A stretch of DNA of 21,329 bases from a virus. Taxonomy: Duplodnaviria > Heunggongvirae > Uroviricota > Caudoviricetes. The position numbers and the translations under genes are program-made. The notes beneath the pieces were generated by a model. The model did not search any database. It was not told the DNA's origin and saw only the letters and a list, made by a program, of their open reading frames with translations. Below, in pieces: positions 16,432 to 18,740 of the stretch (position 1 is its first letter; each line of letters begins with the position of its first letter). The stretch lies in IMG/VR virus record IMGVR_UViG_3300029610_000212. One strand, written 5' to 3'.

Positions 16432-18338
16432 CAGACCAGTCCTCCATCCGTCAGACGGTTGTCCCCGTTAAAAGCCGGATTATTTCGGGTGACCGTGGTC
16501 AGTTCATCGGCAATGGCTTTTTCATCCTGCCCGGGAGCTGCATTAATTTCGAAGTGATAATCAAACTTCCGGTTATCGATAACCTGCCTGGACGGCGGCT
16601 GTTTATCCAGTGCGTCCATTTTCTGCAGCAGGTTTTCCCAGTAGCCCCCTGTTTTGTCCTCCTGCTCTCTGGCAGAACGCGGATCCGGGGCTTGTTGTTG
16701 TCGTGAAGAAAATGTGATTTCCGGTAGAACAGCAGGAAAGACGGGAGGTAACACATCTTTATTCCAGGCTTCGGTATTGTTCTCCGTCATTGCCGGAACG
16801 TAATGCATAAATGTGTTGTTTTCTGTCGTCGTCGGAGCGGTATGAATAACTGTGTTATTTTCCGTTGTTACCGGGGGCAACGATGCAGACTCCCGCTGGT
16901 TACGCTGTAAAGCGGTATTCCAGTTTAATAAGGATTCGTGGCTTTCCGGGGTCAGATAGTGATCAACAGACTGGTTAAATGCCTCATCATCCGAATCAAA
17001 ACCCAAATAACCACGTGTCGATGCCCAGGACTGTTTCACCTTTTCCGGTAAGTCCGGATGCGCTGTTAACTGCTGTTCAAACCATTCCCCCTGTCCACTT
17101 CGCTGCGCGGTCAGTCTGGCAAAGTCAACGGAACCTCTTCTGGCGAGCGCTTTCAGCACATCACGCTGATCTTCACGCTCATCCGGTAACAGCCAGGCCA
17201 GTTTTTTAGCCAGCGCATAGACAATTTTGCCAACAAAAACCACGCCCTGACCAAAGGTCAACACCCCGGGATAAAGATCGTTACGCAGGAAAGTGACAAT
17301 ACGCCTGACGCCGCCCCCTTTAAACCAGTCTGCCAGATCGTCCGTTAATCGCCGGATATCAGGTGCCAGCTCGTTACCCAGTTGCCCGGAAATCTCCGCC
17401 ACCGCCGAAGAGAACACCGTGCGCAGATTACTGATAGCCTGATTACCGGCAATCGCACCTTCTGCCCCCTCCCGGGTCACCAGGTTATAACGACGCTGCT
17501 CGTCCATCAGCTCCCGGTAGCTTCTGCCCGACTGTTTGATCAGCATCAGCAGCTTACTGGCCTCCCCGCCAAAAAGAGAGTCCAGCGCAAAAGATGCTTT
17601 TGCCTCATCCTGGAGACTGAGCGCCCGCTCAACAATTTTATCGAACTGCGCCATATCACTGAGCCCGGCAAAATCGCCCTCTTTAAATCCCAGCGTTTCA
17701 AAGGCATCCTGCAGAGAGCCCTGTTTCCCGTTTTGCTTATACTCACCCGCTTTGTGCAGATACTCCTCAAAAAGGTCACCAATATTTTCGGCATTCATAT
17801 CGTACTGCCGGGCCAGGGAGTCCCACGCACTGAAGGTGGCGACATCCACACCGTAGCTTTTCGCCACACTGGCGCGGGTGGCAGTTTCAGCATTCGTTGC
17901 TGCCGGGGCGATAAGCGTGCCGAGCGCTGAGGCCACCACACCACCGCCACCAAATGCCAGTCCGGTACCGAACATACCTCCGACCTGACCGGCAATCCCC
18001 AGACCACGCCGGAACAATCCCTTCCCGGCACCTTTGAATGCCTCAATCCGCTGTGCTTTTTGCATCTGGACATTCAGTTTCTGCTGCTCTGCCTCTGCCT
18101 TGCGGATCTCTCTGGAAACTTCGCTATAACGGCGTTTCAAATTTCCCAGACTTTCACCTGCCAGTTTCGCGCGTTTAATTTCAGCAGCCAGTTTTGTCTG
18201 CTCCTTTGTCAGACGTTCTGAACGTTTCCCGACATCATTCAGGCTCTTTTGTAAACCGTCAGCCGATCGCTTCCATGAACTGTCCAGGTTACCGCCAAAC
18301 GTGATAACGGCTTTAAGATTCTGGCTTATTCCGCCCAC
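16428..18338 (-). CDS. Phage tail tape measure protein (GTG start)
   Basis: 636-aa ORF with an N-terminal coiled-coil-rich segment, a Gly-rich hydrophobic segment (GLGIAGQVGGMFGTGLAFGGGGVVASALG) and short C-terminal tandem peptide repeats (TTENNTVIHTAP / TTENNTFMHYVPA / MTENNTEAW). First in-frame start is GTG at 18338, 10 nt after GGAG. Confidence 0.85.
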   Translation of the reverse strand: MGGISQNLKAVITFGGNLDSSWKRSADGLQKSLNDVGKRSERLTKEQTKLAAEIKRAKLAGESLGNLKRRYSEVSREIRKAEAEQQKLNVQMQKAQRIEAFKGAGKGLFRRGLGIAGQVGGMFGTGLAFGGGGVVASALGTLIAPAATNAETATRASVAKSYGVDVATFSAWDSLARQYDMNAENIGDLFEEYLHKAGEYKQNGKQGSLQDAFETLGFKEGDFAGLSDMAQFDKIVERALSLQDEAKASFALDSLFGGEASKLLMLIKQSGRSYRELMDEQRRYNLVTREGAEGAIAGNQAISNLRTVFSSAVAEISGQLGNELAPDIRRLTDDLADWFKGGGVRRIVTFLRNDLYPGVLTFGQGVVFVGKIVYALAKKLAWLLPDEREDQRDVLKALARRGSVDFARLTAQRSGQGEWFEQQLTAHPDLPEKVKQSWASTRGYLGFDSDDEAFNQSVDHYLTPESHESLLNWNTALQRNQRESASLPPVTTENNTVIHTAPTTTENNTFMHYVPAMTENNTEAWNKDVLPPVFPAVLPEITFSSRQQQAPDPRSAREQEDKTGGYWENLLQKMDALDKQPPSRQVIDNRKFDYHFEINAAPGQDEKAIADELTTVTRNNPAFNGDNRLTDGGLVW

Positions 18339-18440
18339 GGTTCATCGTCTCCAGTTCATCAGTAAGAAAATCAGAGAAAGTGCTGAACGGCATATCAAGA
18401 TAGTCCGACATAGGAAAATGCAGTCGCCGTCCAAGGAGTT

Positions 18441-18740
18441 TTATCGCCCGGAGGAGGTGTCTTTCGGACGCTTCGCGGGCGGTAGCATAAAAACATTGAA
18501 GGCATCCAGCAGTTGCGCATAGTCTGCAGCCGTCAGTTGCCAGATGTCTTTTTCACTGAGGTTGCACAACAGCGCAATCATCCGGGCTTCTTTTTCTTCT
18601 TCATTACCGCGATCTTTGGCATGAGCAATACGATCGCGCACCAGCGGTTCACGCATCGTCACTTCCTCAAGGATCACGCCACCCTCCAGAGTGACAGGGG
18701 AAAACAATCGGATAACGCGGGTTTCACCGGGAAAAGGCAT
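18441..18740 (-). CDS. Phage tail assembly chaperone (P2 gpE / lambda gpG analogue), probable -1 frameshift partner extending to 18313
   Basis: Start taken at the second ATG (18740-18738; MPFPGE...) because GGAGGTGATT sits immediately 5' of it, whereas the track's first ATG (18752) abuts a hairpin and T-run. The -1 frame is open from inside this gene through the 102-bp gap to a TAA at 18315-18313. Confidence 0.7.
   Translation of the reverse strand: MPFPGETRVIRLFSPVTLEGGVILEEVTMREPLVRDRIAHAKDRGNEEEKEARMIALLCNLSEKDIWQLTAADYAQLLDAFNVFMLPPAKRPKDTSSGR

What the first reader, a model, noticed from the sequence alone, without database searches (positions are those of the whole stretch)
18313..18740. 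Probable programmed -1 frameshift generating an extended tail-chaperone product
The -1 frame relative to the chaperone is open from inside the gene (after a TGA near its 5' third) across the whole 102-bp gap and stops at 18315-18313, 25 nt inside the tape measure gene. This is the lambda G/GT and P2 E/E' arrangement. There is no canonical X-XXY-YYZ heptamer; the best candidate slip site is the T5 run in AAT-GTT-TTT-ATG (minus strand, plus coordinates about 18489-18494).
Basis: partly seen in the sequence, partly recalled or inferred. Interest (0 to 1): 0.4.

Follow-up and report, generated by a model that had tools for sequence, protein, structure and literature searches.

The report
Tail-chaperone -1 frameshift, P2 E/E' type
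A prophage tail-assembly chaperone gene almost certainly makes a second, longer protein when ribosomes slip back one base at a short run of Ts. This is the familiar lambda G/GT and P2 E/E' arrangement, here with a minimal four-base slip site instead of the usual seven-base one.

Summary
On the minus strand the -1 frame is open for 79 codons, from 18552 to the TAA at 18315-18313. It crosses the 102-nt gap and ends 26 nt inside the tape-measure gene. One detail is wrong: the upstream -1-frame TGA (18555-18553) lies two-thirds into the chaperone gene, not at its 5' third.

- All 103 related loci keep GTT TTT ATG in the chaperone frame and a 54-60-codon -1 ORF.
- The Val third base is T in 85 of 85 unique sequences, while 21 other invariant degenerate codons all vary.
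- In most relatives a -1-frame TAA sits just 5' of the T run, and the 0-frame stop follows within 13-17 codons. The shift window is therefore 39 nt or less.
- The 10 gap codons upstream of ATG 18411 are under purifying selection in the -1 frame only (pN/pS 0.15).
- That ATG is not conserved.
- The slip codon aligns with Phe84 of P2 gpE (T_TTT_TTG). Other PF10109 phages have heptamers there.

No stimulatory RNA structure or internal Shine-Dalgarno sequence was found in this clade. This is a new member of a known kind, of modest interest.

The parts
18441..18740 (-). Tail assembly chaperone, 0-frame product, 99 aa (gpE equivalent). An alternative upstream ATG is at 18752. Stop TAA at 18443-18441.
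   Evidence: ORF list and translation. Pfam PF10109 Phage_TAC_7, E=2e-12, residues 10-85. PGAP calls the same 300-nt CDS 'phage tail assembly protein' in a 99%-identical E. coli locus.
18489..18493 (-). T5 run holding the proposed slip site. The tetramer T_TTT is at 18492-18489: the last base of Val83 GTT plus Phe84 TTT.
   Evidence: GTTTTTATG is present in register in 103 of 103 related loci. The third base of the Val codon is T in 85 of 85 unique sequences, whereas the other invariant Val codon is G36/T33/A7/C9. It is the only conserved slippery run inside the shift window of 39 nt or less. The codon aligns with the P2 gpE Phe84 shift codon.
18313..18489 (-). -1-frame extension (E' equivalent): 58 codons, YATAREASERHLLRAIKLLGRRLHFPMSDYLDMPFSTFSDFLTDELETMNRGRNKPES, plus TAA at 18315-18313. 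The predicted fused product is 84 + 58 = 142 aa.
   Evidence: The frame is open. The ORF is conserved at 54-60 codons in all relatives. pN/pS in the -1 frame is 0.15 for codons 18-27 and 0.37 for codons 28-59, against 0.9 to 16.7 in the other frames. A profile match to the extension of phage Mica-type chaperones, whose frameshift is annotated, gives probability 94% and E=9e-8.
18444..18489 (-). Dual-coding overlap. The 0 frame encodes MLPPAKRPKDTSSGR and the -1 frame encodes YATAREASERHLLRAI.
   Evidence: Both frames are moderately constrained here: pN/pS is 0.56 in the 0 frame and 0.84 in the -1 frame. MLPP.(K/E)R is invariant or nearly so in the 0 frame.
18553..18555 (-). Last -1-frame stop (TGA) upstream. 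It is the 5' limit of the shift window in this window's sequence.
   Evidence: In most relatives the limit is a TAA that abuts the T run, as in TT TAA YGT TTT TAT.
18409..18411 (-). Internal ATG of the -1 frame. It is not a conserved start codon.
   Evidence: It is replaced by CTT, TTA, TTT, ATA or TTG in 7 of 78 ungapped unique sequences, from several lineages. No Shine-Dalgarno sequence lies upstream (GACGGCGACTGCATTTTCCTATG). The codons upstream of it are under purifying selection in the same frame.
16428..18338 (-). Tape measure gene (GTG start at 18338). A GGAG Shine-Dalgarno sequence at 18352-18349 lies inside the extension ORF.
   Evidence: ORF list and sequence. PGAP calls the same 1911-nt CDS in L001. 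Its position between the chaperone and a gpU homologue (PF06995) fits a tape measure.
18799..19305 (-). Tail tube gene (P2 FII type), immediately upstream of the chaperone.
   Evidence: PF04985 Phage_tube, E=5e-21.

Best explanation

Most ribosomes read the 0 frame and end at TAA 18443-18441, giving a 99-aa chaperone. A minority slip back one base at T_TTT (18492-18489). The tRNA-Phe decoding TTT (Phe84) re-pairs with the identical TTT one base upstream. The next codon read is then TAT. Translation continues in the -1 frame across the 102-nt 'gap' and ends at TAA 18315-18313, inside the tape-measure gene. The product is a 142-aa fusion of 84 shared residues and 58 new ones.

Shown here by sequence comparison:
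- the frame architecture;
- protein-level selection on the -1 frame, including the part with no start codon of its own;
- an extra constraint on the T run;
- positional equivalence with the P2 E/E' site.

Inferred from lambda G/GT and P2 E/E+E':
- both products bind the tape-measure protein through the shared chaperone domain;
- the extension recruits tube subunits;
- a fixed low ratio of long to short product is needed for tail assembly.

The slip site is a Z_ZZ.N tetramer (U_UU.U), not a heptamer. No stimulator was detected in this clade, so efficiency is probably low. Its value is unknown.
For: - **Gene identity and position.** The gene is PF10109 and lies between the tube gene (PF04985) and the tape-measure, gpU, gpX and gpD genes.
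- **Frames.** The -1 frame is open for 79 codons and the +1 frame is closed. Such an open run is rare in this module.
- **Conservation of the site.** All 103 related loci, down to 62% amino-acid identity in at least 10 genera, have GTTTTTATG in register and a 54-60-codon -1 ORF. In most of them a -1-frame TAA directly abuts the T run. The 0-frame stop lies 13-24 codons downstream, 13 or 17 in most.
- **Extra constraint on the T run.** The third base of Val83 is T in 85 of 85 unique sequences. All 21 other invariant degenerate codons in the 54 codons upstream vary at the third position.
- **Selection on the -1 frame.** pN/pS is 0.15 in the -1 frame for the 10 codons between the 0-frame stop and ATG 18411, against 1.55 and 16.7 in the other frames. 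Synonymous switches such as AGA/CGT/CGC/AGG for Arg occur there.
- **No independent start.** There is no start codon in that frame upstream of these codons in 62 of 84 unique sequences, and ATG 18411 is not conserved.
- **Equivalence with P2.** P2 gpE is also PF10109, with the same profile register: residues 7-85 against 10-85 here, both mapping to profile positions 2-78. Its annotated shift is at GGT TTT TTG, Phe84.
- **Relatives with canonical sites.** Other PF10109 phages carry heptamers on the same Phe codon: A_AAT_TTT, G_GGT_TTT, G_GGT_TTC and T_TTT_TTG. Phage Mica's frameshift is annotated.
- **Homology of the extension.** The extension family matches the Mica-type extension family with E=9e-8.
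- **The motif class works in E. coli.** U_UU.U is the third most shift-prone tetramer in E. coli and is used by IS1 and IS3 elements (PMC4066793).
Against: - There is no experimental evidence for this clade. No database protein spans both parts, and no record annotates the shift.
- The site is not a canonical heptamer.
- Tetramers without a stimulator were barely above background in E. coli reporters, about 0.15% against 0.11% (PMC4066793).
- No stimulator was found. There is no conserved downstream structure. The window's clade has no Shine-Dalgarno-like sequence upstream.
- The extension does not hit Pfam PF06528 (P2 GpE), and the direct profile comparison with P2 E' is not significant.
Confidence: 0.82

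Rival explanations
1. The extension is a separate small gene. It would start at ATG 18411 (32 aa) and be translated on its own, without any frameshift.
For: An ATG exists at 18411 and is present in 71 of 78 ungapped unique relatives. The Hafnia phage yong2 record annotates such a small ORF as a hypothetical protein.
Against: The ATG is replaced by Leu, Phe or Ile codons in several lineages (Providencia, Izhakiella, Erwinia, Tatumella and others). No Shine-Dalgarno sequence precedes it. The 10 codons upstream of it have pN/pS 0.15 in the same frame. The conserved motif RFLGRRLHFP lies upstream of it.
Confidence: 0.04
2. The same fusion protein is made by transcriptional slippage. RNA polymerase would add one U in the T5 run, and the ribosome would not slip.
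For: A homopolymer sits at the right place. An mRNA with U6 would encode exactly the same protein (V-F-Y-A...), so protein data alone cannot tell the two apart.
Against: From established knowledge, bacterial polymerase slippage at useful rates needs runs of about 7-9 or more, and T5 is short. Homologues place classical ribosomal heptamers with short runs (A_AAT_TTT, G_GGT_TTC) on the same codon. That argues for a ribosomal mechanism in the family.
Confidence: 0.05
3. A -1 shift does occur, but elsewhere in the 39-nt window. Candidates are the CTC CCG (C_CCG) tetramer that many relatives have, or a non-canonical event near the 0-frame stop.
For: The window between the T run and the 0-frame stop is 13-17 codons long in most relatives. 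Many relatives have CTC CCG two codons downstream. The site was not mapped experimentally.
Against: C_CCG is absent from this window, which has CTA CCG, and from several other lineages. C_CC.G was only 1.8 to 3.6-fold above background even with a pseudoknot. Only the T run is invariant and shows synonymous-site constraint. It also coincides with the P2 site.
Confidence: 0.05
4. The open -1 frame is not translated. Its conservation would reflect a regulatory or RNA element, for example coupling to tape-measure translation, or chance.
For: The Shine-Dalgarno sequence and start of the tape-measure gene lie inside the region. An open frame of this length could in principle be chance.
Against: Substitutions fall on third positions of the -1 frame, with multi-base synonymous Arg switches. 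No conserved RNA structure was found. The frame stays open in 103 of 103 loci. Open -1 runs this long are otherwise absent from the module.
Confidence: 0.02

Closest known systems
Bacteriophage P2 E / E+E' -1 frameshift (Christie et al. 2002, as cited in PMC3091744; annotated in NC_001895)
   Same: - The gene order is the same: tube, chaperone, tape measure.
- The chaperone belongs to the same Pfam family (PF10109) in the same profile register.
- The shift is on the same Phe codon (residue 84 in both).
- The extension is in the -1 frame, has no start of its own, and ends just inside the tape-measure gene.
- The fused product is 142 aa in both.
- No downstream RNA structure is known for P2 (PMC3091744), and none was found here.
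   Different: - P2 has a full heptamer T_TTT_TTG. This locus has only the tetramer T_TTT followed by ATG.
- The P2 extension is Pfam PF06528. This extension does not match that family and is only related to it, at best, through the Mica-type extensions.
- The 0-frame tail after the shift is longer here (15 codons against 7) and is itself conserved.
Lambda G / GT tail assembly chaperone frameshift (Levin 1993; Xu 2004, 2013, 2014, as reviewed in PMC5009743)
   Same: - There are two products with a shared N-terminus, from a gene between the major tail gene and the tape-measure gene.
[quoted passage not shown]
- The inferred role is the same: the chaperone domain acts on the tape measure and the extension recruits tail tube subunits.
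   Different: - No sequence similarity to lambda G/GT was looked for here.
- Lambda is a siphovirus with a non-contractile tail.
- Lambda uses the heptamer G_GGA_AAG.
- The lambda ratio of about 30:1 was measured. Nothing has been measured here.
Burkholderia phage Mica tape measure chaperone frameshift, and unannotated equivalents in Acinetobacter phage Alexa, Serratia phage MQ-4, Ralstonia phiRSP, Vibrio Valp1, Pseudomonas PPpW-3 and Persinger
   Same: - The chaperone is PF10109.
- The -1 extension is homologous by profile comparison (probability 94%, E=9e-8).
- The shift motif is centred on the same conserved Phe codon.
   Different: - Those phages have canonical heptamers (A_AAT_TTT, G_GGT_TTT, G_GGT_TTC) in which the Phe codon is the second triplet.
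- In this locus the first triplet (GTT) cannot re-pair.
- Chaperone identity to this locus is only about 30-35%.
Z_ZZ.N tetramer -1 frameshift sites of IS1 and IS3 elements (Sharma et al. 2014, PMC4066793)
   Same: The motif class is the same. U_UU.U allows cognate re-pairing of a single tRNA-Phe.
   Different: IS tetramer sites normally work with a downstream pseudoknot or hairpin, or with an upstream Shine-Dalgarno sequence. Neither was detected in this clade. The biological context is also different.

Membership tests
Tail assembly chaperone programmed frameshift (lambda G/GT, P2 E/E+E' class) | The gene pair lies between the major tail or tube gene and the tape-measure gene. | tested here: met
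   The tube gene (PF04985) is at 18799-19305, the chaperone at 18441-18740 and the tape-measure gene at 16428-18338. gpU, gpX and gpD homologues follow.
Tail assembly chaperone programmed frameshift (lambda G/GT, P2 E/E+E' class) | A second ORF overlaps the 3' end of the first in another frame. It has no start or ribosome-binding site of its own and extends to the tape-measure gene. | tested here: met
   The -1 frame is open from 18552 to 18316 and ends 26 nt inside the tape-measure gene. No ATG, GTG or TTG lies upstream of the conserved codons in 62 of 84 unique sequences. ATG 18411 is not conserved and has no Shine-Dalgarno sequence.
Tail assembly chaperone programmed frameshift (lambda G/GT, P2 E/E+E' class) | A canonical X_XXY_YYZ slippery heptamer lies in the overlap. 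| tested here: not met
   No heptamer is in register in 18444-18552. Only the tetramer T_TTT is present. Tetramers are an accepted -1 motif class in E. coli (PMC4066793), so this weakens the expected efficiency and not the mechanism.
Tail assembly chaperone programmed frameshift (lambda G/GT, P2 E/E+E' class) | The two-frame arrangement and the slip site are conserved among diverged relatives, and the second frame carries a coding signature. | tested here: met
   103 of 103 loci keep the arrangement. The slip site shows synonymous-site constraint. pN/pS in the -1 frame is 0.15-0.37, against 0.9 or more in the other frames.
Tail assembly chaperone programmed frameshift (lambda G/GT, P2 E/E+E' class) | Two proteins with a common N-terminus are actually produced in a fixed ratio, and both are needed for tail assembly. 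| not testable with these tools
   This needs western blotting or mass spectrometry, and genetics. No spanning protein exists in the 5.8-billion-sequence database, as expected for a frameshift product.
Pfam PF10109 Phage_TAC_7 (chaperones P2 E, Mu gp41, gp14) | The profile match is above the gathering threshold. | tested here: met
   47.3 bits against a cut-off of 25, E=2e-12, residues 10-85 on profile positions 2-78. P2 gpE scores 47.5 bits in the same register.
Pfam PF06528 Phage_P2_GpE (the E' extension of P2) | The profile matches the -1-frame extension. | tested here: not met
   There is no hit at E up to 10 for 14 family members. hhalign against P2 E' gives the expected register but probability 0.7%. 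The link is indirect only, through the Mica-type extensions.
Mu-type -2 (or +1) tail chaperone frameshift | The extension is encoded in the +1 frame. | tested here: not met
   The +1 frame has stops at 18535-18533 and 18397-18395, and further ones downstream. The coding signature is in the -1 frame.
Transcriptional slippage sites | A long homopolymer, typically 7-9 nt or more of A or T. | tested here: not met
   The run is T5 in all 103 loci.
Stimulated bacterial -1 frameshift sites (dnaX, IS3, IS911 type) | An upstream Shine-Dalgarno-like sequence or a downstream hairpin or pseudoknot at the proper spacing. | tested here: not met
   The RNAalifold consensus is -3.6 kcal/mol with no covarying pair. 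The single-sequence fold has z = -0.10. Two hand-picked stems show no compensatory change. Anti-Shine-Dalgarno pairing upstream is -3.1 kcal/mol, which is background level. The Hafnia, Erwinia, Rouxiella and Rosenbergiella lineages do have GGAGG there.

The most novel reading that the evidence does not exclude
In this enterobacterial clade the conserved tail-chaperone frameshift may run on a bare U_UUU tetramer. There is no re-pairing P-site codon, no RNA structure and no internal Shine-Dalgarno sequence. If the long product is nonetheless made at the few-percent level seen in lambda and P2, an unrecognised stimulator must be acting. Candidates are the invariant nascent peptide ...AFNVF, the invariant downstream MLPP (Pro-Pro) codons, and the invariant mRNA stretch AUGCUNCCGCC. 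The sister lineages that carry GGAGG 9-10 nt upstream would then be a natural comparison of stimulated and unstimulated versions of one site.
Probability: 0.15. Interest if true: 0.45.

Novelty: new member of a known kind. Interest (0 to 1): 0.27.

Why it matters
This is mainly an annotation matter. None of the public records for this phage group annotates the long product. That covers E. coli, Citrobacter, Enterobacter, Pantoea, Providencia and other prophages, Citrobacter phage Chris1 and Hafnia phage yong2. The 102-nt 'intergenic gap' is in fact coding. A predicted 142-aa protein, by analogy essential for tail assembly, is missing from protein databases.

It also adds a well-supported natural example of a tetramer-only -1 site in a phage tail gene. 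The site sits at the exact position where relatives use heptamers. That is useful training and benchmark material for frameshift predictors. It also shows how slip motifs drift while the shift position stays fixed.

Tried and rejected
- **A-run as slip site.** GAA AAA GAC at 18552-18544, just after the -1-frame TGA, is not conserved. It reads GAACAGGAT in relatives, and in most relatives it lies upstream of a later -1-frame stop.
- **Downstream stimulatory structure.** I tested the hand-picked stems CGCCCG/CGGGCG (7 nt after the site) and CCGCCC/GGGCGG. Both can form in many sequences. Neither shows a compensatory change, and departures only break pairs. RNAalifold and the single-sequence fold were also negative.
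- **Upstream Shine-Dalgarno-like stimulator.** None is present in the window's clade.
- **Pfam, NCBIfam and PHROGs searches with the extension.** No family was hit.
- **Direct BLASTP and hhalign of the extension against P2 E'.** Neither was significant.
- **Database search with the fused 142-aa product.** Hits cover only the chaperone part. Two hits that join both frames (P0059, P0067) look like products of assembly indels.
- **PDB sequence search.** No hit.
- **AlphaFold2 on the fused product without an alignment.** Mean pLDDT was 60, too low for a fold search, so none was run.
- **Christie et al. 2002 (PMC135442).** The paper is not held in the library. P2 facts are taken from the NC_001895 annotation and from PMC3091744 and PMC5009743.
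Full report
**What is in the sequence.** The finding lies in a minus-strand contractile-tail module of the P2/R-pyocin type.
- The order is sheath (interrupted by a run of N), tube at 18799-19305 (PF04985) and a 99-aa ORF at 18441-18740 (PF10109 Phage_TAC_7, E=2e-12).
- A 102-nt gap follows, then a 636-aa tape-measure ORF from GTG 18338.
- Downstream are gpU (PF06995), gpX (PF05489), gpD (PF05954), the baseplate genes W, J and I, the tail fibre and its assembly protein.

Translation of the three minus-strand frames shows that the -1 frame relative to the chaperone is free of stops from 18552 to TAA 18315-18313. 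That is 79 codons. The +1 frame is closed repeatedly. The -1 ORF crosses the whole gap and ends 26 nt inside the tape-measure gene. The T5 run is at 18493-18489, in AAT GTT TTT ATG.

The last upstream -1-frame stop (TGA 18555-18553) is two-thirds of the way into the chaperone gene, not at its 5' third.

The open frame is unlikely to be chance. Within the 13 tail genes of the window, -1-frame open runs have a median of 10 codons and a maximum of 65. Only 0.2% of positions are followed by 60 open codons.

**Relatives.**
- The segment is 99% identical to a prophage remnant in three E. coli wastewater genomes.
- It is about 80% identical to an E. coli SC476 prophage and to Citrobacter phage Chris1, and about 70% identical to Hafnia phage yong2.
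- No record annotates a frameshift. The gap is left empty, or in yong2 it holds a small 'hypothetical' ORF.
- A scan of one genome per species gave 18 loci in Citrobacter, Scandinavium, Enterobacter, Providencia, Pantoea, Izhakiella, Erwinia, Tatumella, Rouxiella and Rosenbergiella, at 62-95% protein identity.
- IMG/VR gave 80 more loci.

**The -1 frame is translated, and not from its own start.** All 103 loci have a 54-60-codon -1 ORF. One locus is cut by a contig end. Across 78 ungapped unique sequences, substitutions in the gap fall on third positions of the -1 frame.

| Region | -1 frame pN/pS | 0 frame pN/pS | +1 frame pN/pS |
|---|---|---|---|
| Extension codons 18-27 (0-frame stop to ATG 18411) | 0.15 | 1.55 | 16.7 |
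| Extension codons 28-59 | 0.37 | 0.91 | 2.25 |
| Chaperone body | 2.39 | 0.12 | 2.06 |

Codons 18-27 encode the best-conserved motif, R-F-L-G-R-R-L-H-F-P. They show synonymous switches between Arg codon families (AGA, CGT, CGC, AGG).

These codons lie upstream of the only ATG of the frame in this window (18411). That ATG is replaced by Leu, Phe or Ile codons in several lineages and has no Shine-Dalgarno sequence. In 62 of 84 unique sequences, the window included, the -1 frame holds no ATG, GTG or TTG between its upstream stop and codon 18. Ribosomes must therefore enter this frame from the chaperone frame.

**Where the shift happens.**
- In most relatives the sequence is TT TAA YGT TTT TAT. 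A -1-frame TAA sits directly 5' of the T run.
- The 0-frame stop lies 13 codons after GTT in the shortest variants and 17 in many others. The intersection of the allowed windows is 39 nt or less.
- Inside that window GTTTTTATG is invariant in 103 of 103 loci.
- The key free position is the third base of Val83. It is T in 85 of 85 unique sequences. The other invariant Val codon of the protein is G36/T33/A7/C9.
- All 21 other invariant degenerate codons in the 54 codons upstream vary at the third position.
- The only alternative in this window, the A run at 18552, is neither conserved nor accessible in relatives.
- C_CCG, two codons downstream in many relatives, is absent from this window.

The best reading is a shift on T_TTT (18492-18489). 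tRNA-Phe on TTT re-pairs with the TTT one base upstream. It may sit in the A site with a non-re-pairing Val tRNA in the P site, or alone in the P site. The next codon read is TAT. The product in either case is ...DAFNVF-YATAREASERHLLRAIKLLGRRLHFPMSDYLDMPFSTFSDFLTDELETMNRGRNKPES, 142 aa in all.

**Comparison with known systems.** P2 gpE is also a PF10109 protein and matches the profile in the same register: residues 7-85 in P2 and 10-85 here, both on profile positions 2-78. The annotated P2 shift site, GGT TTT TTG (T_TTT_TTG), is on Phe84. The slip codon here is also Phe84, and both fused products are 142 aa. PMC3091744 states that P2 shifts -1 at TTTTTTG to give the 91-aa E and the 142-aa E+E', and that P2 has no downstream structure.

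More distant PF10109 phages carry the following on the same Phe codon.

| Phage | Sequence at the shift position | Motif |
|---|---|---|
| Burkholderia phage Mica (frameshift annotated), Acinetobacter Alexa, Serratia MQ-4 | AAT TTT | A_AAT_TTT heptamer |
| Ralstonia phiRSP, Vibrio Valp1 | GGT TTT | G_GGT_TTT heptamer |
| Pseudomonas PPpW-3, Persinger | GGT TTC | G_GGT_TTC heptamer |
| Wolbachia WO | GGT TTT TTG | T_TTT_TTG heptamer, as in P2 |
| Pseudomonas ZRG1 | TCT TTT TCG | T5 run, as in this locus |
| E. coli phage vB_EcoM-569R10 | GTA AAG, three codons downstream | A_AAG tetramer |

The extension family of the present clade matches the Mica-type extension family by profile-profile comparison (probability 94%, E=9e-8, 39 columns). 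The link to P2 E' is weak: E=8e-4 from the Mica-type profile and not significant directly. The extension is not a PF06528 member.

This locus therefore works like P2 E/E' and sits at the same position. Its slip motif has decayed from a heptamer to the tetramer U_UU.U.

**Efficiency and stimulators.** Sharma et al. 2014 (PMC4066793) ranked the tetramers in E. coli as A_AA.G >> U_UU.C > U_UU.U > C_CC.Y > A_AA.A.
- With an IS3 pseudoknot the frequencies were 0.26-5.6%.
- Without a stimulator they were near background.
- U_UU.Y tetramers are used in IS1 and IS3 elements.

PRFect lists a 'five' homopolymer among the backward motifs seen in phage chaperone genes (PMC10274946).

I looked for stimulators and found none in this clade.
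- The RNAalifold consensus over 26 diverse sequences is trivial, at -3.6 kcal/mol with no covarying pair.
- The window's own fold is no better than shuffles (z = -0.10).
- Two plausible GC stems show no compensatory changes.
- Anti-Shine-Dalgarno pairing 5-20 nt upstream is at background level (-3.1 kcal/mol).

The Hafnia, Erwinia, Rouxiella and Rosenbergiella lineages differ. They have GGAGG 9-10 nt upstream, with pairing of -9.5 to -12.2 kcal/mol. The efficiency in this clade cannot be predicted. It may be well below the roughly 3% of lambda.

**Function (inferred).** The inference is by analogy with lambda G/GT (reviewed in PMC5009743) and P2 E/E+E'. The shared N-terminal domain would coat the tape-measure protein. 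The rare long form would add a domain that recruits tube subunits. Neither form would end up in the virion. The 0-frame tail MLPP.(K/E)RPK is itself conserved, so the overlap codes in both frames (pN/pS 0.56 and 0.84).

**Rivals.**
- Independent initiation at ATG 18411 is contradicted by the selection upstream of it and by its loss in several lineages.
- Transcriptional slippage would give the same protein, but T5 is short and relatives use classical ribosomal heptamers.
- A non-coding explanation is contradicted by the codon-position pattern.
- A shift elsewhere in the 39-nt window cannot be fully excluded without a junction peptide.

**Verdict.** This is a new, unannotated member of the well-known tail-chaperone frameshift class. 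Its distinguishing point is a tetramer-only slip site with no detectable stimulator. Interest is modest.

Noticed in passing
window 19924-20005: An 82-nt run of N interrupts the tail sheath gene on the minus strand. As a result the ORF finder splits the sheath gene into 19302-20078 and 19801-20850.
   Followed up: no
L004 (Hafnia phage yong2), L018 (Erwinia), L020 (Rouxiella), L021/L022 (Rosenbergiella), about 9-10 nt upstream of the T5 run: These diverged lineages have a strong internal Shine-Dalgarno-like GGAGG (anti-SD pairing -9.5 to -12.2 kcal/mol), encoded by L-E-E-A. The spacing is typical of dnaX-type stimulators. The window's clade has CTGGATGCC there, at background level. This may be a lineage-specific frameshift stimulator.
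   Followed up: partly
L111 (Burkholderia phage vB_HM795), 604-994: In this PF10109 chaperone the frame that stays open up to the tape-measure gene is the +1 frame, not the -1 frame. That suggests a Mu-like -2 or +1 shift within the same protein family.
   Followed up: no
L001 (E. coli SW071611, NZ_CM129855.1), locus 2120-3102: In the 99%-identical E. coli locus the prophage is a remnant. An IS1 element truncates the tube gene, and a disrupted GABA permease gene and csiR lie next to it. The chaperone, extension and tape-measure segment is intact there.
   Followed up: no
window 88-9609: The left part of the window is bacterial chromosome, not prophage.
- Genes resembling the E. coli common pilus operon are present (EcpB C-terminal domain, a CooC/TcfC-type usher).
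- There is a CxxCxxCC protein and a DUF1440 protein.
- An IS3-type integrase-core fragment lies at 7667-8230.
- A YadA-type trimeric autotransporter adhesin lies at 8317-9609.
- The phage tail-fibre assembly gene at 10526-11110 follows directly.
   Followed up: partly
window 18444-18488: The 0-frame tail of the short chaperone product (MLPPAKRPK...) is invariant or nearly so across genera and contains a Pro-Pro pair three codons after the slip codon. It may have a function of its own, or it may affect ribosome kinetics near the site.
   Followed up: no
window 20813-21232 (minus strand): A 139-aa ORF lies directly upstream of the sheath gene and overlaps its start. It has no Pfam match.
   Followed up: no
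database proteins P0059 and P0067: Two metagenome-derived proteins join the chaperone C-terminal part to the extension through a garbled stretch. They are probably products of assembly indels near the T run, not natural fusions.
   Followed up: no
window 18740 and 18752: Two in-frame ATGs could start the chaperone (MEVIMPFPG... or MPFPG...). PGAP and all relatives fit the second one, which is preceded by GGAGG at 18753-18749.
   Followed up: partly
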